A stretch of DNA of 64,000 nucleotides, taken from a virus. Lineage: Duplodnaviria; Heunggongvirae; Uroviricota; Caudoviricetes. Position numbers and translations under genes: made by a program. The DNA is taken from positions 235,001 through 299,000 of the IMG/VR virus record IMGVR_UViG_3300021387_000463; one strand, written 5' to 3'. The notes beneath the pieces are model-generated. The model did no database searches and had not been told where the DNA came from. It worked only from the letters and a program-made list of their open reading frames with translations. Shown here one piece after another: positions 11,550-63,453 of the stretch. The stretch's first letter is position 1. Each line of letters starts with the position of its first letter.

Positions 11550-12845
11550 ATGGATAGGAAAGTATATATAACACCGAAGCAATATGGGGTATTGAAGGAA
11601 TCAGAGTGGAACTTACACTATGGTGGTGGCAGTTGGAGGGGTGATGGAAAAGAGCATACCTTAGAGCCTCATTATAGTGACAACAAGTTCAACATGGTTG
11701 GTCGTGATACAGGACATTTTGGTAGTGGAACATATTTTTCAACTTACAATTTTTCTCAAGATATGAGAGAACCTTTAAATAATAGTATGGATAATACTGA
11801 CCCTCATTTCATTAAGATTGGTGATGGTGTTTACCGTGTTGATTTTGACCTTTATAAGAACTTGTACAAGGTGACAAGTGAGAAACAAGGTGACATGTTA
11901 TTTACCATGATGGAAAATCTAAACAACATGTACAACAAGATATGTGAGTATAGGGGTATGTTTATGGATGGTAAACATGCAAACTATAACAATGCTAGGA
12001 ATTATCAGATTATAAAGAGAAATGCCGAGGCATTGGGGTTAAGGTGTCCTAGTTATTATCAGTTGACGAGAATGGCTCAAGAGCATGGTAAGAATAATGA
12101 TGCTGTTCAATCATTTTCCACATTATTCATGGAATGGAATGGTTATAATGGGGTGAATGTTAGTGGTATTGAGCGTTATGACAATACATTACATGGTTCT
12201 GTTATATATGACTTATCCAAGGTAAATACTGATATGGAGCAAGTTAATCCAAAGAACTTATTTAGTGGGTTTGGTGATAGTATGTATAACAACACCATTG
12301 CAGCCGATGGTTTTTCAGATGATGTTCATGATTCACTGAGGGGGAAGGATTTCTTGTGGAGTAACAAGTTGAATGAAATGCCGTTGCCTCAAGCCATGAG
12401 GCTTTTGAAAAATTACACTGATTACGGTAACATATTAAATTCATTTACAATTGAGAAATTAAATCCTGACCTTGCCAAAAGATATTTGAGGTTAATATTT
12501 GTAAAGAATCCTAGAACGTATTGGACTGAGGGTATTAATGACATAGTATTAGGTGGTGATAAATCAAAGTATTACCTTAAATTAATTGACAAATATGAGG
12601 CATATTATTGGGTAAACTATTATGATGAAAGGAGTCATAGGGGTCATACAATAAGTGGTTTGGAGTCATTGTTAAGTAATTTCGCTAGTAGTCTTAATTG
12701 GTGGAATTACGGCAGTAATGAGGAGATAATGGCTGCAAAGAAGGAATATTATGATAAGTTAATGTCTTATATGCAGAGGGATTTAACTGATTATGAGAAA
12801 GAGTATATAAACGAAGATTATTTTTACACTGATGATGAACAATAA
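11550..12845 (+). CDS. putative virion-associated protein with ADP-ribosyltransferase-like domain
   Basis: Leader KVYITPKQYGVLKE, then HYGG...GHFGSGTYFS...GYNGV, resembling H-G-x-YF / GYDG ART-fold signatures. Confidence 0.5.
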   Translation: MDRKVYITPKQYGVLKESEWNLHYGGGSWRGDGKEHTLEPHYSDNKFNMVGRDTGHFGSGTYFSTYNFSQDMREPLNNSMDNTDPHFIKIGDGVYRVDFDLYKNLYKVTSEKQGDMLFTMMENLNNMYNKICEYRGMFMDGKHANYNNARNYQIIKRNAEALGLRCPSYYQLTRMAQEHGKNNDAVQSFSTLFMEWNGYNGVNVSGIERYDNTLHGSVIYDLSKVNTDMEQVNPKNLFSGFGDSMYNNTIAADGFSDDVHDSLRGKDFLWSNKLNEMPLPQAMRLLKNYTDYGNILNSFTIEKLNPDLAKRYLRLIFVKNPRTYWTEGINDIVLGGDKSKYYLKLIDKYEAYYWVNYYDERSHRGHTISGLESLLSNFASSLNWWNYGSNEEIMAAKKEYYDKLMSYMQRDLTDYEKEYINEDYFYTDDEQ

Positions 12846-13104
12846 GAGAATTAGAGAGATTATAAGGGAAGAGGTTAATGCCTTGGATTTTTTCAATGGT
12901 ATTAATCAGAGCAATGGTGGATTGACACCTTGGAATCCAGATACGAAGATGGAGAGGATGCAGCCAAGTAATGCTTCTAGGTCAAATGGCAGTGTTCCTA
13001 CAAGGGAGTATGGCGTTATACGTGGTTATAATGATTGGAGTGCGAATTTTAAGGGTGAAATGACATATCCTCAGTACTGTGCTAAATTCGGCTTAAGAAG
13101 GTAA
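12832..13104 (+). CDS. hypothetical protein with IREIIREEV leader
   Basis: 90-aa ORF overlapping the upstream gene. Confidence 0.7.
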   Translation: MMNNKRIREIIREEVNALDFFNGINQSNGGLTPWNPDTKMERMQPSNASRSNGSVPTREYGVIRGYNDWSANFKGEMTYPQYCAKFGLRR

Positions 13105-13148
13105 TAACTTTGTCATTCTCAGAGATATTTATAAGAAATATTAAATAT

Positions 13149-13535
13149 ATGGGAGTTATAAGAAACATAAAGGCATCAATAGATGACAAATCTTCAATGA
13201 GTGTCAACAGCATAACGTTGTTGGTTTCTGCTCTTATGGGTGTAATCATTGGTCTTGTTATTTGTTTTGTATTGATTTATGATGTTACTTATGACGGAAA
13301 GGTTGATACGAACTTAACTGACATGGGTATTTTCTTGCTATGTAGTGGTGGTTACATCATGGGTAGCGGTGTTCCAAAGGCTTGGGTTGACTCAAAAATG
13401 AAGATGCGTTCTTGGGTTGAAGGTGAAAAGATGCAAGCTGAAGCTGATGAGGACATTGAAGACATGAGAATGGCGAGAAGAAGGAGAAGAGGAAAAAATC
13501 TTGACGATAATAACGAAAACGAAGAAGATATATAA
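13149..13535 (+). CDS. two-TM membrane protein (holin-like candidate)
   Basis: MGVIRNIK start after late motif; 2 hydrophobic segments and a charged C-tail (RRRRRGK...EEDI). Confidence 0.6.
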   Translation: MGVIRNIKASIDDKSSMSVNSITLLVSALMGVIIGLVICFVLIYDVTYDGKVDTNLTDMGIFLLCSGGYIMGSGVPKAWVDSKMKMRSWVEGEKMQAEADEDIEDMRMARRRRRGKNLDDNNENEEDI

Positions 13536-13538
13536 TAT

Positions 13539-15488
13539 ATGAACAAGAAAGTACTAGATTTTGTAAATAAATTGGAGGGTTATAAGACAGCGATTAAGCA
13601 ATTGCATTGGGATGCTGATAACATGTCCCAACATGAATTGTGTGATGATATTGCTGAAAGCATTGCTGAATTTCAAGATACAGTATCTGAGGTTGAGCAG
13701 TCTATAACAGGCAAACTAAAGGTTAACTCTCTTAAGCCTACTGAATATAAGATTAAGGACTTAAAATCATTTGTTGAGGATGTATTAGATGCCACTAATA
13801 GTTTTTACAAGGAGGTAAAAGATATGGGTGACACTTATGTTGGTATGGCAAGTGACTGTGAGAGCTTTTTATCTGATATGCAGAGGAAGTTATACCTTGT
13901 TAACTTTACGCTTAAGGAAGAGCTTAAAGAGAGGCTTAGAGGCAAGATTAACGAGTCAATGCCAAAGAACTTGGCAAATCATGATGAGGTTGACAAGTTC
14001 ATGGGAAGAAGACCAAAGACGATGAAGGCTAGAATCAACCAGATTTACAGAATTGTAAAGAGGTATGGCATTGATTCAAAGCTTTATCATGATGACCATT
14101 GGCAAGCAAAGGATGATTACTACAGAGCAATCACCTCATTGGGTTGTGACTTTGAAATGAGACCTTGTGGCAATTCAAACAACTTGGACAATTGGGATGA
14201 CATTACCTCAGATGGTGGATATTGCGATTATGCTGAAGATGGTATGCCACGTTCAAAGCAATATGCTGTAAAGATTATGTACGATGATGGAATGAACATT
14301 GGCGGTTACATTAAGTTCATGGCAGCTGGTCGTGTTGATGACCCATTCAGTGCATATGATACTTGTATGATTCTCTGGCCAAAAAATAATCGTGTATTAG
14401 AGAATAGAGAAATGAGAAACGAATCAATTACTGAATATGGTGACAAACCAGAGACTAGAGAAAAAATGGGTGCAGTTGCCAAGCGTGGAATAATGAAGGG
14501 TGACGTTAAGCCTTATCAGAGAGCCATGAGTAGCTTAGGAAAGAGAGGAAGTCGTAAAGAAGATTATGCAGATTTCCAAAGGGGCTTTGAAAATGAGAAT
14601 AGACAGATAAAGTTATCTGAGGCAGAACTTAAACAAGTGGTTAAGGAAGCTGCGATGAAGATATTAAGTGAAACTCCATTAAACTATGATATTGATAATT
14701 TCAGTGGAAGATGGACTAAGAGTGAACCTAGTGATGAAGAATGGGCATTAGCTGACTCAAGGGCAAATGGTGATTATTTGGATGACCCATTCCATGCACC
14801 TAACAGCTGGGATGATGATGAATGGGTAGATGGTGATAAGGATATGGAGAATGATTATTCATGGGGTTTATACCATAGAATGAATAATGTTGGCAAATCT
14901 CCGATTGACAGACAGCATGACATAATGGATGCTGCCCAGAATAGAAGAGACCATGCAGCTTATTGGACTGATAAGGATAATGAACGTGGTAGAAAATTGA
15001 TGGATAAATGGATTAATGGTAAGAGAGATACAGATGAATTGGGTGATGTAGATTTCTCTTACGACCCATATAAGTACAATGAGTCAAAAAGACCAATAAA
15101 GGTTACTGAGAACGAGTTAAAAACTATCATTAAGGAAGCCGCAGTTAAACTTATCAAGGAATATGGCGAAAATGTAAAGAATTTTGTAAAACGTAGTGGT
15201 TGTGCTGCAAGGCGTAAAACTGGTGACCCACGCAAGGATAAGGAGAATAGGGAGAAGTGGCTTGAGAGACAAAGGAAAAGGGAACTGAAGGGTGTTTCAA
15301 AGGAAACTGATGAATCGATTGATATAAAGCCATCTAAGGAAGGAACATTCACAGCAGCCGCAACGAAGCATGGCAAGAGTGTTCAAGGTTTTGCTTCTCA
15401 AGTATTAAATAATAAGGATGATTATTCACCAGCTATGGTTAAGAAGGCCAATTTTGCTAGGAATTCAAAGAAATGGAATAAGAAATAA
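13539..15488 (+). CDS. multidomain protein: N-terminal ferritin/Dps-like domain, internal leader repeats and C-terminal KKANFARN domain
   Basis: KQLHW...HELCDDIAE...QDTVSE ferritin-like helix pattern; internal IKLSEAELKQVVKEAAMKILSE and IKVTENELKTIIKEAAVKLIKE. Confidence 0.7.
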   Translation: MNKKVLDFVNKLEGYKTAIKQLHWDADNMSQHELCDDIAESIAEFQDTVSEVEQSITGKLKVNSLKPTEYKIKDLKSFVEDVLDATNSFYKEVKDMGDTYVGMASDCESFLSDMQRKLYLVNFTLKEELKERLRGKINESMPKNLANHDEVDKFMGRRPKTMKARINQIYRIVKRYGIDSKLYHDDHWQAKDDYYRAITSLGCDFEMRPCGNSNNLDNWDDITSDGGYCDYAEDGMPRSKQYAVKIMYDDGMNIGGYIKFMAAGRVDDPFSAYDTCMILWPKNNRVLENREMRNESITEYGDKPETREKMGAVAKRGIMKGDVKPYQRAMSSLGKRGSRKEDYADFQRGFENENRQIKLSEAELKQVVKEAAMKILSETPLNYDIDNFSGRWTKSEPSDEEWALADSRANGDYLDDPFHAPNSWDDDEWVDGDKDMENDYSWGLYHRMNNVGKSPIDRQHDIMDAAQNRRDHAAYWTDKDNERGRKLMDKWINGKRDTDELGDVDFSYDPYKYNESKRPIKVTENELKTIIKEAAVKLIKEYGENVKNFVKRSGCAARRKTGDPRKDKENREKWLERQRKRELKGVSKETDESIDIKPSKEGTFTAAATKHGKSVQGFASQVLNNKDDYSPAMVKKANFARNSKKWNKK

Positions 15489-15495
15489 ATGATAT

Positions 15496-15534
15496 AAAAA
15501 AAGAGGTAGGAATTTAATCTTACCTCTTTTTTTA
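15496..15534. terminator. bidirectional terminator
   Basis: aaaaaaagaggtagg-aatttaa-tcttacctcttttttt between convergent genes. Confidence 0.85.
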
Positions 15535-15537: not shown

Positions 15538-16389
15538 TTAGAAATCTGTTGTTCCGATTTTAGGTCTTTTATAGAATCCTCTTGGGTCTACTGTATAGTC
15601 TTTATATCCATCACTATCCGTATATGTACCATCGGTGAATTCTATATATAATTTATTATCTCCAATCCATCCAGTTTTAGCATCGCTAAGTCCAAATTTC
15701 ATGAACTCATCATAGATTTTTTCTGACTCTGGTGTCATGTGTCCGTTTTCATCGGTATCAAATAAAGCATAGTAATCTCCGAAGTCAGTAACTTTTCCTC
15801 CAGTTTGTTTTGTTAGGTCTTCTAGATAGTTTCTTACATAATTCCAATAGCTTCTATCAGAACCTTTTCCAAGGCCAGTTGTTTTCTTTCCTCTAGCCCT
15901 TTTATGTGTTTGCATTCTTTGTTTTTCTGGAGATACTGTTTGTGTTATATCGTAATATTTACGAGCACCATCACCAATATCTTTATAATCAGTTTCCTTA
16001 TAAGTATAACCAGGATAGTCTTGGTTTCTTGAAGCTGCTATGTCTTGACTTTGCTTAAGTACGGATTCAAGTTTCTCCTTTACCTTTGGGTCTTTCTGAT
16101 ACTCTGGTTTAATTATGATATATTTACTTCCATCGTTAAACTCACATACATCATCAACAAATTGGTCTAGTTTCCAAGGAATACTTTCGCCTTTTTTTAA
16201 AAAAATTAAGTCATAACTTAAGTCATTTTTGTCCAATTGATACTTTTTGTTGACACTACGCACCCCTCCATGTTGTCTTGCAACTTTTTTGAGTCTTGGT
16301 GAAGCAAAACCTTCGCTAAGTATTCTTTGTACGGATTCTTTAACAATGTTATGTAAATCTGATTCTGTTAATCTAATTATATTTTTCAT
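15538..16389 (-). CDS. hypothetical protein with MKNIIRLTESDLHNIVKESVQRILSE leader
   Basis: Leader motif; late motif at 16408-16416 on the minus strand. Confidence 0.8.
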   Translation of the reverse strand: MKNIIRLTESDLHNIVKESVQRILSEGFASPRLKKVARQHGGVRSVNKKYQLDKNDLSYDLIFLKKGESIPWKLDQFVDDVCEFNDGSKYIIIKPEYQKDPKVKEKLESVLKQSQDIAASRNQDYPGYTYKETDYKDIGDGARKYYDITQTVSPEKQRMQTHKRARGKKTTGLGKGSDRSYWNYVRNYLEDLTKQTGGKVTDFGDYYALFDTDENGHMTPESEKIYDEFMKFGLSDAKTGWIGDNKLYIEFTDGTYTDSDGYKDYTVDPRGFYKRPKIGTTDF

Positions 16390-16461
16390 ATATATATACA
16401 TTTTCTATATAAATATTAGTATATACAAAAAAAATGCAGTCATCGTAGGCTGCATTTTGTA

Positions 16462-20859: not shown

Positions 20860-20934
20860 AATTTGAATTGTTTTGCTTTTGTTATTTTCTGTGAACCTTA
20901 AGACATACCAAGATGTCATCAGTTCTTAGGTTTT

Positions 20935-21032: not shown

Positions 21033-22550
21033 ATGATTTTAACTATAAATCAGATAATAAAAAGATTCAGAACCGAGGGACAGTGTTACAAGTTCAAACC
21101 CCAGACAATTATGTATATGGCAAGCAAGCTTGGGTATACAAAGAAGCAGTTTGGTGGTAAGATAGGTTATGACCAAAGTCTGATTACGGCCATTACAAGG
21201 CATTTTAACGAGGCAGTGAAGTACGATGAAGGTTTAGGTATGAAAGTGCCTCAGAAGCCTTTAAAACAGCCAAATATGGATGATTACTATACATATAATG
21301 GTGAGAGAGACAATATAGATTACGATTGGGAGAAAAACGAGAATAGAATGAGAAGAAATTATTTAATTGAAGGCCCACAAGCAATAAACAACATAAAATT
21401 AGCGATTGAACTAATAGAGGAACAATGGTCATCGTCTGATGATTATTGGTATATTTCTATCCGTCAAAGAGAAAAAGATAACAAAGGTGTCGTTAATCCT
21501 AATGGTAATTCAATTTTTTCTAATGAAAGATGGATTGATGGAGATGAAGACAAAAACAAGATAGGGTATGCAATTGTTAGAGGGAATTCAATAGAAGAAG
21601 CAATTAGTTCATTGCTTAATCCAACAGTTATCATATTTGATTCTTGGTTAGATTTTGTTGAAGGTGAAAAACGCATATCAAGTAATGATGGTAACATGAG
21701 TAGTATCATTAAAATTTGTAGAGCGTTTAATGCTAGGGCATATTTTTCATCTTACAAATGGTCTTATAAGAAGAATTACGGTTTAATTCCTAATGACCAA
21801 TTAACGCCTAAAGTTATTAAAGCTTTAAGGGGAAAAGATGATGACAGCTCTTATGAAAGGGCTTTAGATTTTGTTTCTACTCGTAAAAGGACTAAAGAAA
21901 ATTTACCATTATGGTTTGTCGATTGTGATGATGAAGGTGATGATATAAATAAAAAAGTTTATGATTACATAACTAATTTCAGTGGTATTGAGCCAAGATT
22001 TTATAGGACTCATAATGGTGTACATTATTTGGTTAATATGAGTAATTTCATAAACAAAAAGGGGGCAATGTCAGAAATGACAAGTGAATTGAACCAATTT
22101 TTTTATAATTTATATAACAATCAAATTAAGAAAAACAAAACAGGACAAGACAATCCGATAGAGTTAGAAAAAGGTAATAGTATTATCCTATTTTCTGAAG
22201 TGGGGCTTCATGATGGTGATATTGCTAATCGCAATTGGCAACCACAGATTACTAATTCTATCAAAAAACCAAAAGTTTCTAAGACAAAAACTCCTAAAAA
22301 GGTGGTTAAAACCAATGGCATTCCTAAACCAATGTTTGTTTTAAAGTTTACTAGTGGTAACGTTTTCAAATGTGATGCATCATCGAAAGAATCTGTTTTT
22401 ACTGCGTTGAAGGAGCGATTTCCTAAGTGGTCTGATGATACCATTATGATGCACTTAAATAACAAAAACAATTATGTAATGGAAAGTAGAAACATAAAGA
22501 CTATACTTATTGAAGTAATAAATGAATTTTTAAAAAAAGAAATATTATGA
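21033..22550 (+). CDS. multidomain protein with AEP/primase-like DxD...H core
   Basis: ISIRQREKDN...ICRAFNARAYF...WFVDCDD...RTHNGVHYL; domain boundary at NYLIE; C-terminal IKTILIEVINEFL. Confidence 0.5.
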   Translation: MILTINQIIKRFRTEGQCYKFKPQTIMYMASKLGYTKKQFGGKIGYDQSLITAITRHFNEAVKYDEGLGMKVPQKPLKQPNMDDYYTYNGERDNIDYDWEKNENRMRRNYLIEGPQAINNIKLAIELIEEQWSSSDDYWYISIRQREKDNKGVVNPNGNSIFSNERWIDGDEDKNKIGYAIVRGNSIEEAISSLLNPTVIIFDSWLDFVEGEKRISSNDGNMSSIIKICRAFNARAYFSSYKWSYKKNYGLIPNDQLTPKVIKALRGKDDDSSYERALDFVSTRKRTKENLPLWFVDCDDEGDDINKKVYDYITNFSGIEPRFYRTHNGVHYLVNMSNFINKKGAMSEMTSELNQFFYNLYNNQIKKNKTGQDNPIELEKGNSIILFSEVGLHDGDIANRNWQPQITNSIKKPKVSKTKTPKKVVKTNGIPKPMFVLKFTSGNVFKCDASSKESVFTALKERFPKWSDDTIMMHLNNKNNYVMESRNIKTILIEVINEFLKKEIL

Positions 22551-54573: not shown

Positions 54574-55329
54574 ATGGATAAGAAAATCATAAGACTAACT
54601 GAATCAGACCTTCATAATATTGTGAAGGAATCAGTGAATAAAATTTTGAAAGAATATACAGGAGATTTTGGCTACAGTGATGACCCAAACTATAACAAAT
54701 TTGCACAGCAAAATAGACCTCAGCAAAAACAGACTCCACCACTTGCTAACTATCAGCCAAAGAGACTTGGTGGTAATTTGGTGTCTAATGATGGTGGGGA
54801 ATCATATATGTGGGATGATTCTCAACAAAGGCAATTTGGAAACAATGGAACTGTAGAAGAATCTGCTGTAAACGAGGTAAAGTATGATGGCGTTTCATAT
54901 CACGGAACAAACCCTTATGATTGGGTAGATGTTGCTAAAGAGAGACAATATAAGGCAAGAGGGGAAGAAGATAAAGTTTCCCAATATAATAGAGAACGTT
55001 TTAAAGCAAAAGACAATGGTGACTTTATGGGTGCAGAAAATGCATCCAATAATGCAGATACACATAGGCAACAGTGGAGGCTTCAAAATAAAAAAATGAA
55101 TAGAAACTATGATAATGCGAAACAACTTGGATGGAAAGGTGTTGATTGGGAAGGAAATGGAGATACAAGATTAGGTAAAGCACAAGAATATTACAATATG
55201 GGTCAGAACGCTCAAACGCCACAAGACAGACAACGTTATAATAAAATGGCTCAAGATACATTGGGTGACGTAGAAGGTAGAGCACAAAAGAGTCTAAATA
55301 TGCTAAGAGCCGCAAGAGGGCAAGCATAA
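54574..55329 (+). CDS. hypothetical protein with MDKKIIRLTESDLHNIVKESVNKILKE leader
   Basis: Leader nearly identical to the 15538-16389 ORF; Q/N-rich body. Confidence 0.8.
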   Translation: MDKKIIRLTESDLHNIVKESVNKILKEYTGDFGYSDDPNYNKFAQQNRPQQKQTPPLANYQPKRLGGNLVSNDGGESYMWDDSQQRQFGNNGTVEESAVNEVKYDGVSYHGTNPYDWVDVAKERQYKARGEEDKVSQYNRERFKAKDNGDFMGAENASNNADTHRQQWRLQNKKMNRNYDNAKQLGWKGVDWEGNGDTRLGKAQEYYNMGQNAQTPQDRQRYNKMAQDTLGDVEGRAQKSLNMLRAARGQA

Positions 55330-55517: not shown

Positions 55518-57395
55518 ATGATTTACGATAGGCAAGAAATGAGTCGAGACTATGCCATGTGCTATGCCGACAAATCAAGAATTACATTTATAGAAAAGTA
55601 TTTCTCTACCTTTAATGCAACTAAGGGTAAGAAAACACAATTCCACTGTTTTCCACGTCAGAGAGCATTCCTCAAGGCTCTTGCGGAGAATAGAAACGTT
55701 GTTGCGATTAAACCAAGACAGTGTGGTATCACAACATTATCAAGTGCTTGGGCTGCTGCCCAGTGTGCATTTGCATCAGCAGAGGCACCTGAGACTGTGT
55801 TGTGTATTGCCAATAAGCTTGAGCAAGCGCAAGAAATTATCATCAAGGTAAGAGATTTCCTTGAGCAAGTTCCTAGATGGTATTGGGGTAACGATTATTT
55901 CTCAGTTGACCCTAATTCAGAAAAAAACACAAAATCAATTTTTTTAAAGGATGCAAAAGGTGAGTTGAAATTGTTCAATGGCTGTAGAATCATTGCACGT
56001 GCATCTGGTCCTAATGCTTCTCGTGGTATCTCTGCTGTATCCGTATTGATTCTTGACGAGGCAGCATTCATTGAGGAAGGTGTGGCTGCATTTACCACTG
56101 CTGCTGCAACTATGGCATCTAACCCTAATTCTAAGACTGTTATGGTATCTACCCCTAACGGTAGAGACGAGCTTTACTATAACACATATAGACAAGCATT
56201 AAGCCATGAGAATAACTTCGTGGCAGTACAGTTCCGTTGGTATCAAGACCCAAGATTCAACAAGTATCTTGTTTGGAAGAAGAAGAACGAGAATACTGGA
56301 GAATGGGAGTTTGACCAAGACCCAATAATCGATAGCGAGGGAAGTGTGAAGTATGATGAGGAAAGATGGGCTAGACTTGAACATAACGGTTGGAAGCCTA
56401 CAGCACCTTGGTATGATGAAATGTGCAAGCAGTTCAACAATGACTCAATGAAGATTGCCCAAGAGCTTGATGTATCGTTCATGGGTTCTGCCGACAACGT
56501 TGTTGCCCCAGAGTTCATTGAAATGCAAGAGAAACTTAACACAAGAGAGCCACTTGATGATTTCCATGACCCATTAGTTGAGGAGACTTGGTTCTGGAAG
56601 CGTCCTCTTGAGGGACACCGTTACATTCTTGCGTGTGACCCATCAAGAGGTGTGTCTGCCGATAGAACAGCCATTGAGATTATTGATATGGATGGAAGGG
56701 ACGAGAATGGTATACCTATCATTGAACAAGTTGCGGAATATGTCGGTAAAAAATTAGGTGATGACATCGGAGCATTGTGTTATCAATATGCCACAATGTA
56801 TAATGATGCTTTCATTGTTGTGGACTGTACTGGTGGTCAAGGTGATGCTGCTATATTGGCACTTATTAATATGGGTTATAAGAACATGTACTATGAGGAC
56901 TCTAACCAGAAGACATATACGGTTCAGAGGTCAACGAAGAACTATGATGGATACACGGATAAACTTCCAGGTTTCCACTTCCAAGGAAACCGTTATCCAG
57001 TACTTGCAAACTTCGCAGGACTTGTTCGTAACAATGAGTTCAAGATTCGTTCAGCTAGGGTAATCAATGAGCTTGAGACTTGGATATTCAAGGGTGAGGC
57101 AGCTAGAATTGACCACCAAGACGGTGCTCATGACGATACTCTTACAGCATTGGCTATGGGATTATTCGTTATGCAGTACACTGTCAATAGGATACAGAAT
57201 ACTGCCAATAAGGATAAGGCCATCCTTAATGCGTATATGATGAATCGTGCAATTAGTATGAATAAGCCTAAGATGAAGAGTGGAGAAACCATTGCTCCTA
57301 AGACTGGTTTACCTTTCTATAGTTCAAAGAAACGTATTGAGAAATATGATAAAATTGGTGGAAGTTGTATGTGGCTATTTGGGGGTATTCGTTAA
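55518..57395 (+). CDS. terL: terminase large subunit (T4 gp17-like)
   Basis: PRQ...IKPRQCGITT (Walker A), LILDEAAF (Walker B), VSTPNG, ACDPSRG and HDD nuclease motifs. Confidence 0.95.
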   Translation: MIYDRQEMSRDYAMCYADKSRITFIEKYFSTFNATKGKKTQFHCFPRQRAFLKALAENRNVVAIKPRQCGITTLSSAWAAAQCAFASAEAPETVLCIANKLEQAQEIIIKVRDFLEQVPRWYWGNDYFSVDPNSEKNTKSIFLKDAKGELKLFNGCRIIARASGPNASRGISAVSVLILDEAAFIEEGVAAFTTAAATMASNPNSKTVMVSTPNGRDELYYNTYRQALSHENNFVAVQFRWYQDPRFNKYLVWKKKNENTGEWEFDQDPIIDSEGSVKYDEERWARLEHNGWKPTAPWYDEMCKQFNNDSMKIAQELDVSFMGSADNVVAPEFIEMQEKLNTREPLDDFHDPLVEETWFWKRPLEGHRYILACDPSRGVSADRTAIEIIDMDGRDENGIPIIEQVAEYVGKKLGDDIGALCYQYATMYNDAFIVVDCTGGQGDAAILALINMGYKNMYYEDSNQKTYTVQRSTKNYDGYTDKLPGFHFQGNRYPVLANFAGLVRNNEFKIRSARVINELETWIFKGEAARIDHQDGAHDDTLTALAMGLFVMQYTVNRIQNTANKDKAILNAYMMNRAISMNKPKMKSGETIAPKTGLPFYSSKKRIEKYDKIGGSCMWLFGGIR

Positions 57396-57453
57396 GTAAC
57401 AAATATTTATATTTATACTTAAAACAATTATATTTTATAATAAATGATTTAAA

Positions 57454-59493
57454 ATGGCTAAAAATACAGTTTTCCAAGCCCTAGATAAAGCTATAAGCGG
57501 TAATTGGTCTTCTCCATCAACATCAATAGCAGAACCACATATAAATTCATATGATTTGAGTTCTAATGGTGGTAAAAATATACTCTACAAAACAACGGAT
57601 AGAGAGGATTACTTACAGAAGAAACTAGAGCTTCAGCAAGATAAGTACTTGAAGGACAGATGGGTTAAAACAAATGTTAACCTAGCTGTAACTGCATATG
57701 CTGGACTTAACAACGTCAAGTTGATGTATCGTGATGGCGATTTGATGGATGCATTTCCAGAGATTAGTGCAGCACTTGATATTGTTTCTGAGGAAAGTAC
57801 AATTGTTAATGACAAGGGAATGGTTGTTAATGTTTATTCAAAGTCAGATAGAATCAAGAGCATTCTTGAGGATTTGTTCGTGAATAGGCTTAACATCCAG
57901 TTAACTGGTCAAATGATTATTCGTGCAATGTGTAAGTATGGTAATCAGTTCATGTTATTGGATATTGACCATAAGAATGGTGTGAAGGGTTGGAAACAAC
58001 TTCCAGTGTTTAACATGGAAAGAATTGAGAACGGAATTCAGAATCCTTATGGTGCTGGTGCATCAATCGCTGTTAACGGTATCACAAAGGATGACGCAGA
58101 CCTTTCAACTCAGTTCATTTGGTTGGATGACAATAACTCTCAAGTACCATTTAGAGATTGGCAGATTGCACACTTCAGATTGCTCACCAACTCATTATAT
58201 TTGCCTTACGGTGTAAGTTATCTTAATGGCGCACGTAGACATTGGAGAATGCTTTCACTTATGGAGGACATGATGCTTATTTATCGTCTTGAGCGTTCTG
58301 TTGAAAGACGTGTATATAAGATTTTCGTAGGAGCAATTGACGATGCTGATGTTGAGGCATATGTTGAGAGAATTGCTAATGAGTTCAAAAGAACACCAAT
58401 TATTGACCCAGTAACAGGTCAAGTTGACCTTCGTAAGAATATTCTTGGAATTGATAATGATATATTCATTCCAGTTCGTGATGAGAATGCTCCAACTCCA
58501 ATTGATACTCTTCAAGCAGGTCAGAACATGACAGCTCTTGATGACATCAAGTTCGTACAGAATAAGGTGTTGACCTCACTTAGAATACCTAAGTCATTCT
58601 TGAATTTCGAGGAAGGTGTTGGTGACGGTAAGAATCTTGCACTTATGGATATTCGTTTCACTAGAACAGTAAACAGAATACAGCAAGCATTCTTGATGGA
58701 ACTTACAAAAGTGGCTTCAATCCACTTGTTCTTGTTGGGATTCAATGATGAATTAACTAATTTCTCATTGACAATGAATAATCCATCAACACAAGCTGAA
58801 GGATTGGAGATTGAGAATATGCAAAAGAAGATTGATGCTGTTAGAGACGCAGTATCAGACCCAGGAAATGGTCTTCCAGTTATGTCACAGACTCGTGCTC
58901 TTAAGCAGATTATGAAATGGTCTGAGAAGGAGATTAAAGAGAACCTTGAAGAGATACGTCTTGAGAAGGGTATTGCTGCTGAACTTGAGAAAACCACACA
59001 GATTATCAAGAAGACTGGTATTTTCGATACCGTTGATAGAATCTATGGTGAACCAGGAGCAGAATACATGGATGATATGCAAGGCGGTCAAGGCGGCATG
59101 GACGCTGGAGGAGGCGGTATGGGCGGTGGAATGGGAGCACCACCACCTCCAATGGGAGACGCACCTGATATGGGTGGAGATATGGGCACACAAGGTGATG
59201 ATGGTAGTGGAATGACACCAGCCCAAGAGGGTTCAATGCCAACTGCCGATATGGGAACTGACCCAAATGCACCAATGGAGTCTAGATATTCAAGCAAGCC
59301 ACTAATAAAGGAGCAGAACAACAAGCTTGATGAAATGTTTAATAAGTATCTCTCAACCTTGAATGGGCGTAATGAGAAACATAGGGAAACTGAATACAAG
59401 CGTGCAAATGTCTATGACGAGGACTCATTATTGATTAATGAGGAATTTGATAAGATGATTGACGAACTTGGTAAGTTTGTTGACAATGAATAA
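57454..59493 (+). CDS. portal protein (T4 gp20-like) with G/M/P/D-rich C-terminal tail
   Basis: PEISAALDIVSEE...AHFRL...YGVSYL..ARRHWRMLSLMEDMMLIYRLERSVERRVYKI...LRIPKSFL...DIRFTRTV. Confidence 0.95.
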   Translation: MAKNTVFQALDKAISGNWSSPSTSIAEPHINSYDLSSNGGKNILYKTTDREDYLQKKLELQQDKYLKDRWVKTNVNLAVTAYAGLNNVKLMYRDGDLMDAFPEISAALDIVSEESTIVNDKGMVVNVYSKSDRIKSILEDLFVNRLNIQLTGQMIIRAMCKYGNQFMLLDIDHKNGVKGWKQLPVFNMERIENGIQNPYGAGASIAVNGITKDDADLSTQFIWLDDNNSQVPFRDWQIAHFRLLTNSLYLPYGVSYLNGARRHWRMLSLMEDMMLIYRLERSVERRVYKIFVGAIDDADVEAYVERIANEFKRTPIIDPVTGQVDLRKNILGIDNDIFIPVRDENAPTPIDTLQAGQNMTALDDIKFVQNKVLTSLRIPKSFLNFEEGVGDGKNLALMDIRFTRTVNRIQQAFLMELTKVASIHLFLLGFNDELTNFSLTMNNPSTQAEGLEIENMQKKIDAVRDAVSDPGNGLPVMSQTRALKQIMKWSEKEIKENLEEIRLEKGIAAELEKTTQIIKKTGIFDTVDRIYGEPGAEYMDDMQGGQGGMDAGGGGMGGGMGAPPPPMGDAPDMGGDMGTQGDDGSGMTPAQEGSMPTADMGTDPNAPMESRYSSKPLIKEQNNKLDEMFNKYLSTLNGRNEKHRETEYKRANVYDEDSLLINEEFDKMIDELGKFVDNE

Positions 59494-59563
59494 GATAAAA
59501 GGCGTGGCAATAACTGTCACGCTTTTTCTGTTAAACATGATATTTATAAGAAATAATGTTTGA

Positions 59564-61858
59564 ATGAAAAGTAAAAGATTATTAGAATATTTTGAAGGTA
59601 CTCCAGATACTGTATACGATACGACTAATCAAGTAACTTGGGAATGGGATAATGAAATGGCAATATCTTTTGGATACTTCCCTATTTCATTAGATAATGA
59701 GTACCTTTTTATGACTGGTACAACAACTCATCTTATGATTGGAGCACAAGCAGCAAAGAAATTGATGGGAAAGGCAATCAGTCATATAAAGGACACCTAT
59801 ATTCCTTGGATTGAAAGACAGTGTTATGGAAAGTCATATTGTCGTGGAAGGATATGGACATTTGATACTGATAAGTATCCTAGTATCATGGCATTTTGGT
59901 ATCTTCCAAGTTCTAGAATGGTTAGAAAGATTGTAAATGAACTTAATATAGACCCATACAAATATATATTGGTAGTGGAAGACTCTAAGAATGCATTTGA
60001 GGAAAATCCAACAATAGCCGAATATATAGAGTCAAATTGTAATGGTGATGATGGATATGATGAAATTAGCGAACCATTTGCTATTGATAAGAGGGTTGTT
60101 GAAATTATAAGAAGATATAATGATACCCAGAAGACTTGGCAAACTAGCAAGGAAAAGGAAGGTTGGAAGTCGCTTGCCCAGAGAAATGCTGTGTTGTATC
60201 AAGAGAATAGACAGAGGATTGATGAATACTTTGCTGGAGACCCAGATACGATTGATGAGTTCGATGATGTTAGTGGTGAATGCATAAGAAGCATAAACTA
60301 TAGGGATAAGAACGTAATATCATTCGGTTTCTTCCAGACAACACTTGATGGAGGTAAGGAATTCATATATAAGACTGACATCTGTCATCATGACATCTGT
60401 AGGGGAATTGCAGAGAAGATAGTTGGTAAAGCCATAGCTTCAGAGGACGTAGAAGAGGGTGAGATAAGAGAGATTGCCTCTTCAATATATTCTGCTACAG
60501 CATACAAGGGACGTATATTCTTGGATGCCAACATGATAACAACATGGAACAGGGTATCTTCAAGTACATTAGAGAATTTGCTTAATCTAATGGGTGGTGT
60601 TGAAAAGTGGAAGCACTTGAGTTACATTGTTCCAAGATGGTATGACCAGAATTGGGAAACTGATGATTTGTCACAGAAGAATATTAATGTTGTTGAATAC
60701 ATTGCAGATGGCATTACTGCTGATGAAACAAGAGATAAGTACTTGATGGAAAGGGATTTCAAACCATTGGTTGATGAGTGGCTTATCAACACCATAAGAG
60801 ACTACAATAAACCTAACTCAACATTAGCAACTAAGACAGCAAAATTGGGTAATATGACAATTGCACAATACAATTCGTTGATACATCAAGAAGAGAAAGA
60901 ACCTAAACAAACTATAAAAGAAAATAATATAAATATGAAAGATAATAAGTATCAAGACTATATTAACATAATGTCTGAGGCATTACAGAAGGATGACTTC
61001 AAGGCATACGAATATGTTAAAGAAATGCTAGATGAGACTATTGAAGAGAGCAAGCATGAGAAAGAACTTATGAACGAAATGAATACAACCAATTTCGGTG
61101 TGTTGAACCATATCTTCGAGAATGAACTTCCAACTCTCATCAAGACAAACAAAAAGGCTGTAAGGAATGTCATCAAGACCATTAAGGAGGATAAGAACCT
61201 TATCAACCAGTTCAACTTCTACAATGTCATCAAGGAGCAGTACAATGGAAGTCATGCTGACATGATTTCATCTAAGGAAGCTCTTGAGAACCTTGCAAAG
61301 ATTGTTGGTGAAAACATTGACCTCAAGACCGTAAAGGCTTCAAACAAGAAGTTAAGAAACGTGATGATTGAGAGTGGTGTTAAGCCAAGTAACTTTGTTG
61401 ATGAGGAATCAAGAAAGCTTTATGAAAATGGTGATGTAATCCTCACATCAAAGAGAAATACAAACAACATGATTTCTCTTGTCGAGAGTTATAACGCTGT
61501 TAGCAACTGGATGGATGCTCATAAGTCAGATAAGATTAATGAAGGTAAGACTCCAGATGAAATGATTAAGGAGTTTGAGGACAAACTTAAGGACAACCTT
61601 AATGAGTCTGAGATTTCATTCGTTCAGCAAATCACTGATTGGAGAAGTCCAATTGCAGAGCAGAGAAAAGAGAAACTTTTCAACAAGTTCAAGAATGAAT
61701 GCATCAATAAGATTAACGAAATGTTGAAGGAAGATGCAGAGAATGTTGAGCTTAAGGGTTTGAGCGACCAGATTAATGAAATGAATTTTAATAAAGAGAC
61801 AATTGTAAAGGATATTGCAAAGTTACTTGAAATAAGAGATATTTTAATGGATGATTAA
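59564..61858 (+). CDS. late protein: two tandem paralogous domains plus a C-terminal helical domain
   Basis: LLEYFEGTPDT..ISFGYF..H..GKAI..RGRIW vs IDEYFAGDPDT..ISFGFF..H..GKAI..KGRIF; possible internal start MKDNKY at 60934. Confidence 0.75.
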   Translation: MKSKRLLEYFEGTPDTVYDTTNQVTWEWDNEMAISFGYFPISLDNEYLFMTGTTTHLMIGAQAAKKLMGKAISHIKDTYIPWIERQCYGKSYCRGRIWTFDTDKYPSIMAFWYLPSSRMVRKIVNELNIDPYKYILVVEDSKNAFEENPTIAEYIESNCNGDDGYDEISEPFAIDKRVVEIIRRYNDTQKTWQTSKEKEGWKSLAQRNAVLYQENRQRIDEYFAGDPDTIDEFDDVSGECIRSINYRDKNVISFGFFQTTLDGGKEFIYKTDICHHDICRGIAEKIVGKAIASEDVEEGEIREIASSIYSATAYKGRIFLDANMITTWNRVSSSTLENLLNLMGGVEKWKHLSYIVPRWYDQNWETDDLSQKNINVVEYIADGITADETRDKYLMERDFKPLVDEWLINTIRDYNKPNSTLATKTAKLGNMTIAQYNSLIHQEEKEPKQTIKENNINMKDNKYQDYINIMSEALQKDDFKAYEYVKEMLDETIEESKHEKELMNEMNTTNFGVLNHIFENELPTLIKTNKKAVRNVIKTIKEDKNLINQFNFYNVIKEQYNGSHADMISSKEALENLAKIVGENIDLKTVKASNKKLRNVMIESGVKPSNFVDEESRKLYENGDVILTSKRNTNNMISLVESYNAVSNWMDAHKSDKINEGKTPDEMIKEFEDKLKDNLNESEISFVQQITDWRSPIAEQRKEKLFNKFKNECINKINEMLKEDAENVELKGLSDQINEMNFNKETIVKDIAKLLEIRDILMDD

Positions 61859-62084
61859 TGTTATAAAAGACGTTATAAGTGAGGTTATAAATAATTATCT
61901 AAATAGTAAGTGTATGATTAAAGAAAATTCTTATTGGGGGGACGATTTGCAGACATTACATGCTTGCGAAGAGTCCCTAAAGGGTGTATACGGAAGATTG
62001 ATAGATAAAGGTCTAACAAAAAACGTTTACATCGTTCAACAGCTTGGGGAAATAATTGGTAAGCTAGAGAAATTAACAAAGTAA
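61851..62084 (+). CDS. hypothetical protein (IKDVISEVINNYL leader)
   Basis: 77 aa, overlapping the upstream stop. Confidence 0.65.
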   Translation: MINVIKDVISEVINNYLNSKCMIKENSYWGDDLQTLHACEESLKGVYGRLIDKGLTKNVYIVQQLGEIIGKLEKLTK

Positions 62085-62188
62085 GTAAAGATGGGTAATC
62101 TACGCACGATTGCCCATTTTTTTTTGTGTTTGGGGCTTGATTTTTACTAAAATTTTTGTTATTTTTTAAAAGTAAAAGATATAACAAA

Positions 62189-62623
62189 ATGAAACGACTT
62201 AATAAAGAATATAAATTAGACGTGTGTAATCATATTTCGTTAAAGTATGGTACGGTAAATAGAAACAACCCTCAAGTTGTTTATATCAGTGGGAAATGTT
62301 GGGTATCTCCACAAAGAGAAATGAATTATTCTGATGTTATTGATAACATTGAAAAAGGTATGAAGAGGAATATAAAATCATTTTTGATTGATGGTATAAA
62401 CTTCGATAATCGCTTTATATTAGACTTTGACATCAACACTGAAGGGCTTATACCGAAGGAGAAGAAATTCCTCTCATTCGACTTCTATTTGCGTCAGAAC
62501 GAGAAGAACAAAAAGCAGTTACAAGATTTGAATGATTTGTTTAAGAGAAAGATTAGTACTATTGCCAACAACCTAGTATATTCTTTTAAGGAAAATGATT
62601 TCACGATAAACAAAAAAAAATAA
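62189..62623 (+). CDS. hypothetical phage protein
   Basis: MKRLNKE start; YGTVNRNNP...FILDFDI motifs. Confidence 0.7.
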   Translation: MKRLNKEYKLDVCNHISLKYGTVNRNNPQVVYISGKCWVSPQREMNYSDVIDNIEKGMKRNIKSFLIDGINFDNRFILDFDINTEGLIPKEKKFLSFDFYLRQNEKNKKQLQDLNDLFKRKISTIANNLVYSFKENDFTINKKK

Positions 62624-62658
62624 ACTCTCAAGAATATTTATTATAAAAATTAAGTATC

Positions 62659-62991
62659 ATGAAGAAGGTAATAAGACTAACAGAATCAGAATTGAAAAAT
62701 ATCATAAAGAATTCCGTTAATAGAATATTAAGGGAAGATGTATTGGGAAATGATTGGCGTGAGAACGACAATGTATTGAATAACTATGAACCATTTGAGG
62801 GTGAGGAACATTCTACCCCATTTGACGGTATGACAAATGACCATGACTTTGGAATAACTGGAGAACCTCTTGACCAAACTCATGATGACATTAATCAAGA
62901 TGATATTGTAAATGGTGGAGACCCAGAGGAATGGGCACAAGATAGAATTGACCTTGAGGCCAATTACGATGATTTTCCACCAATGAGATAA
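62659..62991 (+). CDS. acidic protein with MKKVIRLTESELKNIIKNSVNRILRE leader
   Basis: Leader motif; late motif at 62634. Confidence 0.8.
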   Translation: MKKVIRLTESELKNIIKNSVNRILREDVLGNDWRENDNVLNNYEPFEGEEHSTPFDGMTNDHDFGITGEPLDQTHDDINQDDIVNGGDPEEWAQDRIDLEANYDDFPPMR

Positions 62992-63017
62992 TTTTTTTGG
63001 ATGGTGTTTTGGCAAAA

Positions 63018-63050
63018 AGAAAGCGAGACTAGATTTAGCCTCGCTTTTTT
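63018..63050. terminator. bidirectional terminator
   Basis: aaaagcgagacta-gatt-tagcctcgctttttt between convergent genes. Confidence 0.75.
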
Positions 63051-63054
63051 ATTT

Positions 63055-63453
63055 TTAAATATTCTTTATTTTTACTGTGAAACTTTTAATGTATGAATTC
63101 CTTACACATACAAATTCTATGTTGTCTTTTATTGGAGCATATGCCTTGATTCTCTCCATGAATGTTTGTCTGTCCTTAGATGTGTAGTCACTCATTGGAT
63201 AGCATATATATTCTGTATAACGTCCCATATCCTTTGAATTCATATGCCTCCATCCACATTCTCTTTCAGCTCTCAAGAGGGCTTCAATTGCTCTACCGTT
63301 TGCAGATGAACGATATTCGTCAACTTGGCCTTGGTCGAAGAATAGGTCAGTTTGTCCATTTGGATAAACACCAATCTCATTTATAATTCTAGTGACCGAT
63401 TCGTTTATCAGACCATGCAAGTCACCTTCAGTTAATCTTATCACTTTTTTCAT
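63055..63453 (-). CDS. protein with MKKVIRLTEGDLHGLINESVTRIINE leader
   Basis: Leader motif; directly downstream of the prohead protease gene. Confidence 0.8.
   Translation of the reverse strand: MKKVIRLTEGDLHGLINESVTRIINEIGVYPNGQTDLFFDQGQVDEYRSSANGRAIEALLRAERECGWRHMNSKDMGRYTEYICYPMSDYTSKDRQTFMERIKAYAPIKDNIEFVCVRNSYIKSFTVKIKNI

What the first reader, a model, noticed from the sequence alone, without database searches (positions are those of the whole stretch)
11550..63453. Portable capsid-cargo leader plus I/L-x-E cleavage sites: a candidate modular system for packaging and injecting effectors
Seen: unrelated proteins share a ~25-aa motif. N-terminal copies are KNIIRLTESDLHNIVKESVQRILSE (16389-), KKIIRLTESDLHNIVKESVNKILKE (54574), KKVIRLTESELKNIIKNSVNRILRE (62659) and KKVIRLTEGDLHGLINESVTRIINE (63453-). 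It also occurs twice internally in 13539 (IKLSEAELKQVVKEAAMKILSE, IKVTENELKTIIKEAAVKLIKE). Half-motifs appear in 11550, 12832, 21033, 22547, 23416, 23681, 41579, 48717, 52847 and 61851. The full motif ends in a hydrophobic-x-E after which the sequences diverge completely. Most of these genes carry the ATATTTATA motif or follow one that does, and one abuts the gp21-like protease gene. Known: T4 internal proteins use a short N-terminal capsid-targeting sequence removed by gp21, which cuts after Glu in (L/I)-x-E. Inference: the motif is a shuffle-able capsid-targeting tag, and these genes encode polyproteins cut inside the prohead into separate effectors (ART-like, Nudix, HAD, NTase, ferritin-like, GNAT-like) delivered with the DNA.
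Basis: partly seen in the sequence, partly recalled or inferred. Interest (0 to 1): 0.85.

Follow-up and report, generated by a model that had tools for sequence, protein, structure and literature searches.

The report
Shared head-loading leader on phage proteins
A 413-kb uncultured T4-like jumbo phage of Bacteroidota starts about a dozen unrelated late proteins with the same 26-residue peptide, which ends in the motif its head-maturation protease should cut. This is most likely an enlarged version of phage T4's "load into the head, then clip" tag, but neither packaging nor cutting has been observed.

Summary
The long motif is real at every stated coordinate. The genome has 12 copies in 11 genes, and 9 of them sit directly after the start Met. 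Selection acts on the peptide: identical residues use different codons about as often as chance predicts. Conservation stops abruptly after an almost invariant hydrophobic-x-Glu.

Of the ten "half-motifs", three fit a genuine 16-residue short form. That short form replaces the long leader, at the same junction, in orthologues of the gene beside the protease. The other seven are not distinguishable from chance.

Leader genes lie in late units that share the ATATTTAT promoter of the terminase, portal, protease, scaffold and capsid genes (10 of 11 against about 18% of other genes). Their commonest conserved neighbours across relatives are head-core genes, the S77 protease and the scaffold. Every complete genome with the leader has that protease. 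A close relative keeps the leader but swaps the body exactly at the leader's end.

The leader heads about 7,300 protein clusters in metagenomes. It has no Pfam or PHROG family, and I found no mention of it in the literature.

I read it as a T4-CTS-like prohead-targeting propeptide (confidence about 0.55). Delivery of "effectors" is unshown: only the Nudix and HAD labels hold, and the ART label is a weak lead.

This scan has reported similar leader systems in other uncultured T4-like phages.

The parts
54574..55329 (+). Leader protein of 251 aa; leader codons 54580-54657. It lies just upstream of the large terminase gene.
   Evidence: HMM E 2.5e-17. In relative G016 the syntenic gene keeps the upstream DNA and the leader (91% nt identity to about codon 24) but has an unrelated body; homology resumes after the stop codon.
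15538..16389 (-). Leader protein of 283 aa counted from the second ATG (16389); leader codons 16309-16386.
   Evidence: HMM E 6.5e-17. A late promoter box at 16409-16416 (- strand) lies 20-27 nt from ATG 16389, which is the usual spacing.
62659..62991 (+). Leader protein of 110 aa with an acidic, probably disordered body (pI 4.2); leader codons 62662-62739. It lies in the head module.
   Evidence: It has its own late promoter at 62634-62641. The body family recurs next to leaders in many related contigs.
63055..63453 (-). Leader protein of 132 aa; leader codons 63373-63450. It starts 4 nt downstream of the protease gene and is co-transcribed with it.
   Evidence: Orthologues carry either the long or the 16-residue short leader at the same junction. 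AF2 gives the leader as a detached low-confidence helix (residues 9-27) and the body (50-132) as a confident alpha/beta fold.
13539..15488 (+). 649-aa protein with an N-terminal Dps/ferritin-like region (weak match) and two internal leader copies at 14598-14675 and 15087-15164.
   Evidence: HMM E 8e-13 and 8e-12; DUF5856 and phrog_858 are weak. The G016 orthologue is 79% identical and has both copies.
63458..64000 (-). Prohead serine protease, Peptidase_S77 (T4 gp21 family). The gene runs on to 64153, beyond the window.
   Evidence: Pfam PF03420 E 1.7e-23; it is the only copy in the genome.
11550..11600 (+). Short-form leader candidate (17 residues ending Leu-Lys-Glu) on the conserved 431-aa protein encoded at 11550-12845.
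   Evidence: Regex hit. The N-terminus is conserved in 120 homologues, with variants that approach the short-form consensus. The ART label is unverified.
22547..22615 (+). Short-form leader candidate on the Nudix protein encoded at 22547-23347.
   Evidence: Regex hit; NUDIX E 4e-15. Nudix homologues in relatives lack this N-terminal extension.
23416..23463 (+). Short-form leader candidate on the 90-aa protein encoded at 23416-23688.
   Evidence: Regex hit; the gene lies in a late unit.
55518..62623 (+). Head module: large terminase 55518-57395, portal 57454-59493, unknown 764-aa protein 59564-61858, 77-aa protein 61851-62084, 144-aa protein 62189-62623.
   Evidence: PHROG terminase E 1.6e-39 and portal E 3.3e-65. 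The 764-aa, 144-aa and 77-aa families are the commonest conserved neighbours of leader genes in related contigs (16, 17 and 7 loci).
62634..62641 (+). One example of the phage late-promoter box ATATTTAT. Others in the window: 13125, 21001, 50117, 52361, 54465, 55453, 55488, 57403, 59540 (+ strand) and 16409 (- strand).
   Evidence: There are 58 such boxes 13-65 nt upstream of genes, including all head genes, usually with a T-run 12-17 nt upstream. They are distinct from the host-type TAnnTTTG boxes found before PolB and other genes.

Best explanation
The 26-residue leader (alignments A1 and A3) consists of a short beta-strand segment, a helix cap and an amphipathic helix that ends in hydrophobic-hydrophobic-x-Glu. 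I read it as a prohead-targeting propeptide of the T4 CTS type.

Proposed mechanism, all steps inferred unless marked otherwise. Leader proteins are made late, together with the head proteins; the promoter class was tested here. The leader docks them into the scaffolding core while the prohead assembles. After the shell closes, the gp21-type S77 protease cuts after the terminal Glu, and possibly also after the internal Val/Ile-Lys-Glu at position 17. This frees the body inside the head, and the roughly 3-kDa leader leaves or is degraded.

The bodies are a fast-turning set of small proteins. Some may be prohead-core components and some may be internal proteins that leave with the DNA. Where leaders occur internally or in tandem, the same cuts would split one chain into several pieces.

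Because every member shares the leader, it also serves as the left-hand junction at which bodies are exchanged between phages. Two such exchanges were observed here.
For: (1) Position: 9 of 12 copies here and 117 of 124 in related contigs start within two residues of the Met.
(2) Boundary: 89 of 98 instances end in hydrophobic-x-Glu, either at position 25 or, in a second clade, at position 21. Conservation falls from about 2.5 to about 0.5 bits immediately afterwards.
(3) Selection on the peptide: paralogous leaders are 70% identical in residues, yet 56% of identical residues use different codons, against 62% expected for independent choice.
(4) Protease: the genome has one S77/gp21-family protease. 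All 5 complete leader-bearing relatives (295-412 kb) have it, as do 6 of 10 incomplete contigs. The capsid protein is gp23-like, and three Ile/Leu-x-Glu sites (44, 51, 60) bracket the position that aligns with the mature T4 gp23 N-terminus, so a T4-like specificity is plausible.
(5) Timing: 10 of 11 long-leader genes and 16 of 18 long plus short lie in units headed by the promoter box that precedes the terminase, portal, protease, scaffold and capsid genes. Background is about 18% (Fisher 5e-7 and 1.6e-10).
(6) Neighbourhood: three leader genes sit in the head module. In 69 related loci the most frequent non-leader neighbours are the 144-aa, 764-aa and 77-aa head-module families, the protease (14 loci) and the scaffold (9 loci). 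No modifying enzyme recurs. Leader genes flank the protease in G000, G002, G007, G009, G010, G012 and G016.
(7) Modularity: one body family carries either the long or the short leader at the same junction. Two genes in G016 keep the leader but have unrelated bodies, with breakpoints at the leader's end and just after the stop codon. AF2 does not pack the leader onto the body.
(8) Precedent: the T4 CTS is a 10-residue N-terminal propeptide that targets IPs into the core and is removed by gp21. T-even phages carry diverse IPs that share only a CTS (PMC3012670, PMC9026906, PMC5694885).
Against: No virion proteome, no cleavage assay and no cultured relative carrying the leader (no match in 50,697 phage records).

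Hydrophobic-x-Glu is a three-residue motif that is common by chance: there are 24 in one 764-aa protein.

The leader is 2.6 times longer than the T4 CTS and is not demonstrably homologous to it.

Co-occurrence with S77 is confounded by common descent, because all carriers belong to one group of T4-like jumbo phages.

The promoter class is inferred from sequence alone.

One long-leader gene (genome position 10917) falls in a host-type promoter unit.

Profile comparison of the leader with the scaffold N-terminus is not significant (P 0.034, probability 1.5%).
Confidence: 0.55

Rival explanations
1. The leader is an uncleaved docking or oligomerisation module (a strand plus an amphipathic helix) that joins these proteins to each other or to some other late structure, such as the capsid exterior, neck, tail or an intracellular assembly. 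It is neither a protease-removed signal nor a route into the head interior.
For: It is predicted to be a free amphipathic helix. Tandem and internal copies would give multivalent binding. Late timing fits any virion part.
Against: The conserved neighbours are the protease, the scaffold and head-core genes, not tail genes. The near-invariant terminal Glu and the loss of conservation exactly there are not required of a plain docking helix.
Confidence: 0.2
2. The leader is half of a nucleic-acid-binding fold: a ribbon-helix-helix-like strand plus first helix that pairs between chains. On this reading the proteins are small late DNA- or RNA-binding factors, not cargo.
For: The Lys-Lys, strand, Thr-Glu-Ser cap and helix layout resembles the start of RHH repressors (from my own knowledge, not tested). 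Several bodies are basic (pI 8.2-9.6).
Against: No RHH or other Pfam family matches any leader protein. The second helix that defines RHH is absent, because sequences diverge right after the first helix. Many bodies are strongly acidic (pI 4.1-4.5).
Confidence: 0.1
3. The shared stretch matters mainly as DNA: a homology anchor for swapping gene cassettes, with no function of the peptide itself.
For: Two body swaps have their left breakpoint in or at the leader.
Against: Synonymous sites among paralogous leaders are nearly saturated (56% against 62% expected) while the peptide is conserved. Serine even switches between the AGY and TCN codon families. The leader is kept when it lies inside long proteins.
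Confidence: 0.05

Closest known systems
Phage T4 capsid targeting sequence (CTS) on internal proteins IPI/IPII/IPIII and Alt, removed by prohead protease gp21 (Mullaney and Black 1996, as reviewed in PMC9026906, PMC3012670, PMC5694885)
   Same: An N-terminal tag on otherwise unrelated proteins. It ends in the protease's Glu site. The protease is of the same family (S77) and the capsid protein is gp23-like. The genes are late. The bodies are diverse and turn over quickly while the tag is conserved. Some tagged genes lie between the portal and the protease, where T4 has the core genes 67 and 68.
   Different: 26 residues (21 in a second clade, 16 in the short form) against 10-20 in T4. No detectable sequence homology. 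11-19 tagged genes per genome against a handful in T4, and about 7,300 clusters in metagenomes. Copies also occur internally and in tandem. The host is Bacteroidota. Nothing has been shown experimentally.
Propeptides of inner-body and ejection proteins of phiKZ, 201phi2-1 and SPN3US, cut by gp175/gp245 (PMC5694885, PMC9026906)
   Same: Jumbo phages with a gp21-related protease that cuts many head proteins after Glu. Propeptides may carry more than one site. Paralogues can share identical N-termini.
   Different: Those propeptides are often over 100 residues long, their motif is Ser/Ala/Gly-x-Glu, and they belong to paralogous body families. Here a short leader is shared by unrelated bodies.
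Polyvalent proteins of phages and conjugative elements (Iyer et al. 2017, PMC5512222)
   Same: The idea that several activities are made as one chain, travel with the DNA and are separated by proteolysis. A language-model search points weakly to ART-PolyVal for the 431-aa protein.
   Different: Polyvalent proteins have 2-15 recognisable enzymatic domains, and often MuF or their own metallopeptidase domains. Leader proteins here are small and have no known domains. Any cutting would be done by the prohead protease.
Encapsulin cargo-loading peptides (established knowledge, not examined here)
   Same: A short portable peptide that directs unrelated cargo into an HK97-fold shell.
   Different: Those peptides are usually C-terminal, bind the shell protein directly and are not removed. 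Here the tag is N-terminal and ends in a protease motif.

Membership tests
T4-type capsid targeting sequence / gp21-removed propeptide | Located at the extreme N-terminus of otherwise unrelated proteins | tested here: met
   9 of 12 copies here and 117 of 124 in related contigs lie within 2 residues of the Met. The bodies fall into at least 10 unrelated families.
T4-type capsid targeting sequence / gp21-removed propeptide | Ends in the protease's cleavage motif (Leu/Ile-x-Glu) | tested here: met
   Glu25 carries 2.87 bits. 89 of 98 instances end in hydrophobic-x-Glu at position 25 or 21, and conservation is lost right afterwards. The motif is short and common by chance.
T4-type capsid targeting sequence / gp21-removed propeptide | The phage encodes a gp21-family (Peptidase_S77) prohead protease and a gp23-type capsid protein with a propeptide | tested here: met
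   PF03420 E 1.7e-23. All 5 complete leader-bearing relatives have it. The capsid protein matches T4 gp23 (E 6e-29), with Ile/Leu-x-Glu sites at 44, 51 and 60 around the aligned mature N-terminus.
T4-type capsid targeting sequence / gp21-removed propeptide | Tagged proteins are made late, with the head proteins | tested here: inconclusive
   10 of 11 lie in units behind the promoter box shared with all head genes.
T4-type capsid targeting sequence / gp21-removed propeptide | Sequence homology to the T4 CTS | tested here: inconclusive
   No Pfam or PHROG family covers the leader. A 10-residue peptide is too short for a homology test. The lengths differ (26 against 10; PMC9026906).
T4-type capsid targeting sequence / gp21-removed propeptide | Tagged proteins are incorporated into the prohead core and the tag is cleaved off; the tag alone suffices to package a foreign protein | not testable with these tools
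   This needs virion or prohead proteomics and reporter fusions.
Polyvalent proteins (PMC5512222) | Several recognisable effector or enzymatic domains in one polypeptide, often with MuF or a metallopeptidase domain | tested here: not met
   Pfam on 106 leader proteins found no recurrent domain. The 649-aa protein has only a weak Dps-like match.
Ribbon-helix-helix DNA-binding domain | Strand, helix A, turn and helix B (about 45 residues) matching RHH profiles | tested here: not met
   No RHH family matched at E 0.01. Sequences diverge after the first helix.
RiPP-like leader read by a dedicated modifying enzyme | A conserved modifying enzyme encoded beside the tagged genes | tested here: not met
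   The neighbour census of 69 loci shows only head genes. The single radical-SAM gene is more than 75 kb away.

The most novel reading that the evidence does not exclude
The leader is both an address and a joint. It may be a protease-read punctuation mark that lets Bacteroidota jumbo phages string, swap and load thousands of different small proteins into the head, singly or as chains cut apart inside the prohead. Internal copies would be preceded by their own conserved Asn/Tyr-x-Glu-Ser-Lys/Arg element as a second cut site. If so, this would be a natural, highly expanded and programmable protein-packaging system far larger than T4's, and a large reservoir of uncharacterised injected anti-defence proteins.
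Probability: 0.3. Interest if true: 0.75.

Novelty: new variant of a known kind. Interest (0 to 1): 0.55.

Why it matters
If the leader works like the T4 CTS, it labels by sequence alone thousands of proteins (about 7,300 clusters at 50% identity) that uncultured gut and rumen jumbo phages carry inside their heads. Such proteins act first on the host, and in T4 they include anti-restriction factors and an ADP-ribosyltransferase.

It would also give a ready-made, longer and better-defined packaging tag for engineering Bacteroidota phages. It would show that the T4 internal-protein principle has been scaled up and made modular: long, short and 21-residue forms, tandem copies, and cassette exchange at the tag.

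If it is instead an uncleaved docking helix, it is still a very large, undescribed N-terminal module of phage late proteins.

Tried and rejected
(1) Iterating the HMM to recruit the half-motifs: no new members beyond 12-13 copies. A short-form HMM was underpowered, so I used a regex designed after seeing the data and flag it as such.

(2) Literature search for motif strings: 0 papers.

(3) tblastn of two leader proteins against 50,697 phage records: no leader match.

(4) Pfam and PHROGs on all leader proteins and on 106 metagenomic ones: nothing recurrent.

(5) hhalign of the leader against the scaffold: the best local match is to the scaffold's N-terminal helix, which also ends Leu-Leu-Ser-Glu, but P is 0.034 and probability 1.5%. 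This is not evidence.

(6) AF2 plus Foldseek of the 132-aa protein: a generic ferredoxin-like body with no informative match.

(7) ART identity of the 431-aa protein: the Atlas lead scores only 0.90; Pfam on 43 family members and AF2 plus Foldseek found nothing.

(8) Nudix orthologues in relatives lack the leader-like extension, so they give no support for a leader-Nudix link.

(9) Radical-SAM/RiPP alternative: rejected.

(10) DNA-level repeat explanation: rejected on synonymous divergence.

(11) Enrichment of Leu/Ile-x-Glu in residues 6-30 of late-unit proteins: weak (40% against 25%, P 0.012) and partly driven by the leader genes themselves.

No result exists from either.
Full report
WHAT THE WINDOW IS. 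The window is bases 235,001-299,000 of a 412,753-bp virus contig with 36% GC. The contig encodes:
- a family-B DNA polymerase with an intein;
- a large terminase and a portal;
- a Peptidase_S77 (T4 gp21-type) prohead protease;
- an acidic 497-aa scaffold-like protein;
- a 679-aa gp23-like major capsid protein.

The closest cultured capsid relatives are Flavobacterium and cyanobacterial T4-like phages, at about 40% identity over part of the protein.

Two promoter-like motifs are strongly enriched upstream of genes:
- The Bacteroidota host type, TAnnTTTG, occurs before about 100 genes, including PolB.
- A phage box, ATATTTAT, occurs 58 times, usually 22-30 nt before the ATG and preceded by a T-run. 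It stands before the terminase, portal, protease, scaffold and capsid genes and the following structural genes.

I therefore treat the second box as the late promoter. This is an inference from sequence.

THE OBSERVATION.
- An HMM of the copies finds 12 copies in 11 genes genome-wide, with E from 1e-17 to 1e-12. Reversed proteins give nothing better than E 0.07.
- Nine copies start right after the Met. Two lie inside the 649-aa product of 13539-15488. One follows a DUF3008 domain.
- The gene at 15538 most likely starts at the second ATG (16389), given the promoter spacing, so its leader is N-terminal too.
- The conservation is on the peptide. Paralogous leaders are 70% identical in residues and 66% in bases. 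56% of identical residues use different codons, against 62% expected if codons were chosen independently. Serine even switches codon family.

SHORT FORMS. But orthologues of the 132-aa gene beside the protease carry either the long leader or a 16-residue short one. The short one reads Met-Lys-basic, three alternating hydrophobics, Thr/Ser-Glu, then a short helix ending Leu-Leu/Phe-Glu. Both forms are followed by the same conserved Ile/Met-Gly-Gly-Val-Tyr-Pro body.

A regex for this form finds 13 N-termini in the genome, 7 of them not long-leader genes, against 0.05-0.35 expected. The regex was written after seeing the data, so the size of the excess is biased.
- For 11550 the N-terminus is conserved across 120 homologues, with variants that drift toward the short consensus.
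- The other seven are not distinguishable from ordinary Lys-rich N-termini of an AT-rich genome.

HOW WIDE IT IS.
- A profile of the leader matches 7,289 representative clusters (50% identity) at E up to 1e-3, and 916 at E up to 1e-10, out of 1.84 billion.
- Among the top 150, the first copy is N-terminal in 128. Many have two copies spaced 36-212 residues apart. Internal copies are often preceded by a recurrent x-Glu-Ser-Lys/Arg element, which is also seen before both internal copies in the window.
- Pfam finds no recurrent domain in 106 of these proteins.
- No PHROG, Pfam family or paper covers the leader, and no record among 50,697 deposited phage genomes has it.
- In IMG/VR the leader occurs on at least 69 loci. 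117 of 124 instances directly follow a Met.
- Each complete relative (295-412 kb) has 7-19 copies.
- A second, more distant clade has a 21-residue version ending Val/Ile-Ile-Asn/Lys-Glu.

THE BOUNDARY. Over 98 distinct instances, relative entropy averages about 2.5 bits for positions 1-25, with Glu25 at 2.87 bits. It drops to 0.3-0.7 bits from position 26 on. 89 of 98 instances end in hydrophobic-x-Glu, at position 25 or 21. This matches the T4 gp21 rule, cleavage after Glu with Leu/Ile two residues before, as summarised in PMC9026906 and PMC5694885.

Aligning this phage's capsid protein to T4 gp23 places the mature gp23 N-terminus near residue 45. Ile-Lys-Glu44, Leu-Tyr-Glu51 and Ile-Tyr-Glu60 lie there and are conserved in relatives. 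A T4-like specificity is therefore plausible. The motif is very short, however, and common by chance.

LINKS TO THE HEAD.
(a) Timing. 10 of 11 long-leader genes, and 16 of 18 long plus short, lie in units headed by the late box, against about 18% of other genes (Fisher 5e-7 and 1.6e-10). Genes within one operon are not independent, so these P values overstate the case.

(b) Position. The 54574 gene is just upstream of the terminase gene. The 62659 and 63055 genes lie between the portal and the protease, and the latter starts 4 nt after the protease stop codon. T4 has the core genes 67 and 68 in this position (established T4 gene order).

(c) Neighbour census. In the 3 kb either side of 69 related leader loci, the commonest non-leader families are the homologues of the 144-aa (17 loci), 764-aa (16) and 77-aa (7) head-module proteins, the protease (14) and the scaffold (9). 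No modifying enzyme recurs.

(d) Protease co-occurrence. All five complete leader-bearing relatives have the S77 protease, and leader genes flank it in seven genomes. This co-occurrence is confounded by shared ancestry.

MODULARITY. AF2 models the leader of the 132-aa protein as a detached, low-confidence helix (residues 9-27). A well-folded body (residues 50-132) follows a conserved but unstructured linker.

G016 is a phage whose scaffold and small head proteins are 93-96% identical to this one. Only about five of its eleven leader proteins are full-length orthologues of those here. At two loci the leader is kept and the body replaced:
- The gene upstream of the terminase shares 91% nt identity from the promoter to about codon 24. 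It then has 486 nt where this phage has 769 unrelated nt. Homology resumes at 94% some 85 nt after the stop codon.
- The DUF3008-leader gene behaves the same way.

This is the pattern described for the polymorphic internal-protein genes of T-even phages, which keep only the CTS (PMC3012670; PMC9026906).

INTERPRETATION. The best-supported reading is a CTS-like propeptide: late synthesis, docking into the scaffolding core, and removal by the S77 protease after the terminal Glu. The bodies would be a rapidly exchanged set of prohead-core or internal proteins.
- Shown here: the motif, its N-terminal position, peptide-level selection, the sharp boundary at Glu, the promoter class, the head-module linkage, the protease co-occurrence and the cassette swaps.
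- Inferred: targeting, cleavage, fate of the bodies and injection.

Only Nudix and HAD are confirmed as domains. They carry a short leader or none, and Nudix homologues in relatives lack the extension. The ART label is a lead only. True leader proteins are small, acidic or basic, often low-complexity, and without known domains.

RIVALS. I considered four. Their evidence is given in the Rival explanations section.
- An uncleaved docking or oligomerisation helix (0.2).
- A half-RHH nucleic-acid-binding start (0.1).
- A DNA-level recombination anchor only (0.05).

COMPARISON AND NOVELTY. The principle is the T4 CTS. The differences are:
- length and architecture: 26, 21 or 16 residues, a strand plus a capped helix, and two nested hydrophobic-x-Glu sites;
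- scale: 11-19 genes per genome and thousands of clusters;
- internal and tandem copies;
- a Bacteroidota host.

This scan has reported comparable leader systems, with other sequences, in several other uncultured T4-like jumbo phages. First-stage notes on four other windows of this same genome describe the same leader. I file it as a new variant of a known kind.

LIMITS. No experiment bears on packaging or cleavage.

Noticed in passing
window 16462-20919 (-): The family-B DNA polymerase (1485 aa) carries an intein with a LAGLIDADG homing-endonuclease region at about residues 690-1000. It is driven by a host-type TAnnTTTG promoter.
   Followed up: partly
whole genome; examples at window 13125, 21001, 55453, 57403, 59540, 62634: There are two promoter classes. 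The Bacteroidota-type TTTCGTATCTTTGCA-like box stands before about 100 genes. A phage box, T-run-N8-10-(G/A)ATATTTATA-nn-AA, stands before 58 genes, including all head genes. Together they allow a sequence-only early/late map of the genome.
   Followed up: partly
metagenomic leader proteins P0042, P0066, P0078, P0080, P0081, P0084: A large subfamily of leader proteins ends in a second conserved motif, Tyr-x-Lys-Gly-Lys-Gly-Trp-Gln/Glu/Lys, at the extreme C-terminus. Between the two motifs lies a variable, low-complexity, Gly/Asn/Asp/Tyr/Arg-rich middle.
   Followed up: no
window 14580-14600 and 15066-15090; many metagenomic two-copy proteins: Internal leader copies are preceded by a recurrent Tyr/Phe-x-(Asn)-Glu-Ser/Asn-Lys/Arg element, often with a retained Met. 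This could be a second cut site, or a trace of fusion of tandem leader genes.
   Followed up: partly
window 12832-13104 (+) and genome 5726-5935 (+); also 5 related loci: A different shared N-terminus (Asn-Lys/Arg-Ile-Arg-Glu-Ile-Ile-Asn/Arg-Glu-Glu) occurs on small proteins encoded near leader genes. It may be a second leader type.
   Followed up: no
L004:328-1821 (genome 299328-300821): The scaffold-like protein has a conserved N-terminal helix ending Leu-Leu-Ser-Glu followed by an acidic run. In relative G012 this segment reads Leu-Val-Lys-Glu-Ser-Leu-Asn-Glu, close to the leader's helix. The likeness is not statistically significant, but it could mean the leader mimics a scaffold-scaffold contact.
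   Followed up: partly
window 63458-64153 (-), first 11 codons: The protease itself starts Met-Lys-Lys-x-Glu-Leu-x-Ile-Ile-Lys-Glu, and this is conserved in relatives. It is a short CTS-like N-terminus, as has been suggested for T4 gp21 (Leu-Ile-Glu9; PMC9026906).
   Followed up: no
window 46466-47710 (+): The thymidylate synthase is 414 aa, but the match covers only about 280 profile positions. This implies an insertion of roughly 130 residues of unknown nature.
   Followed up: no
window 11550-12845 (+): The 431-aa protein belongs to a highly conserved family with 437 homologues at 55-65% identity. It has invariant Gly-Arg-x-Thr-Gly-His-Phe-Gly-Ser-Gly-Thr-Tyr-Phe and other motifs, but no Pfam match, no PHROG match and no fold match. 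AF2 is unsure of the first 100 residues despite their conservation.
   Followed up: partly
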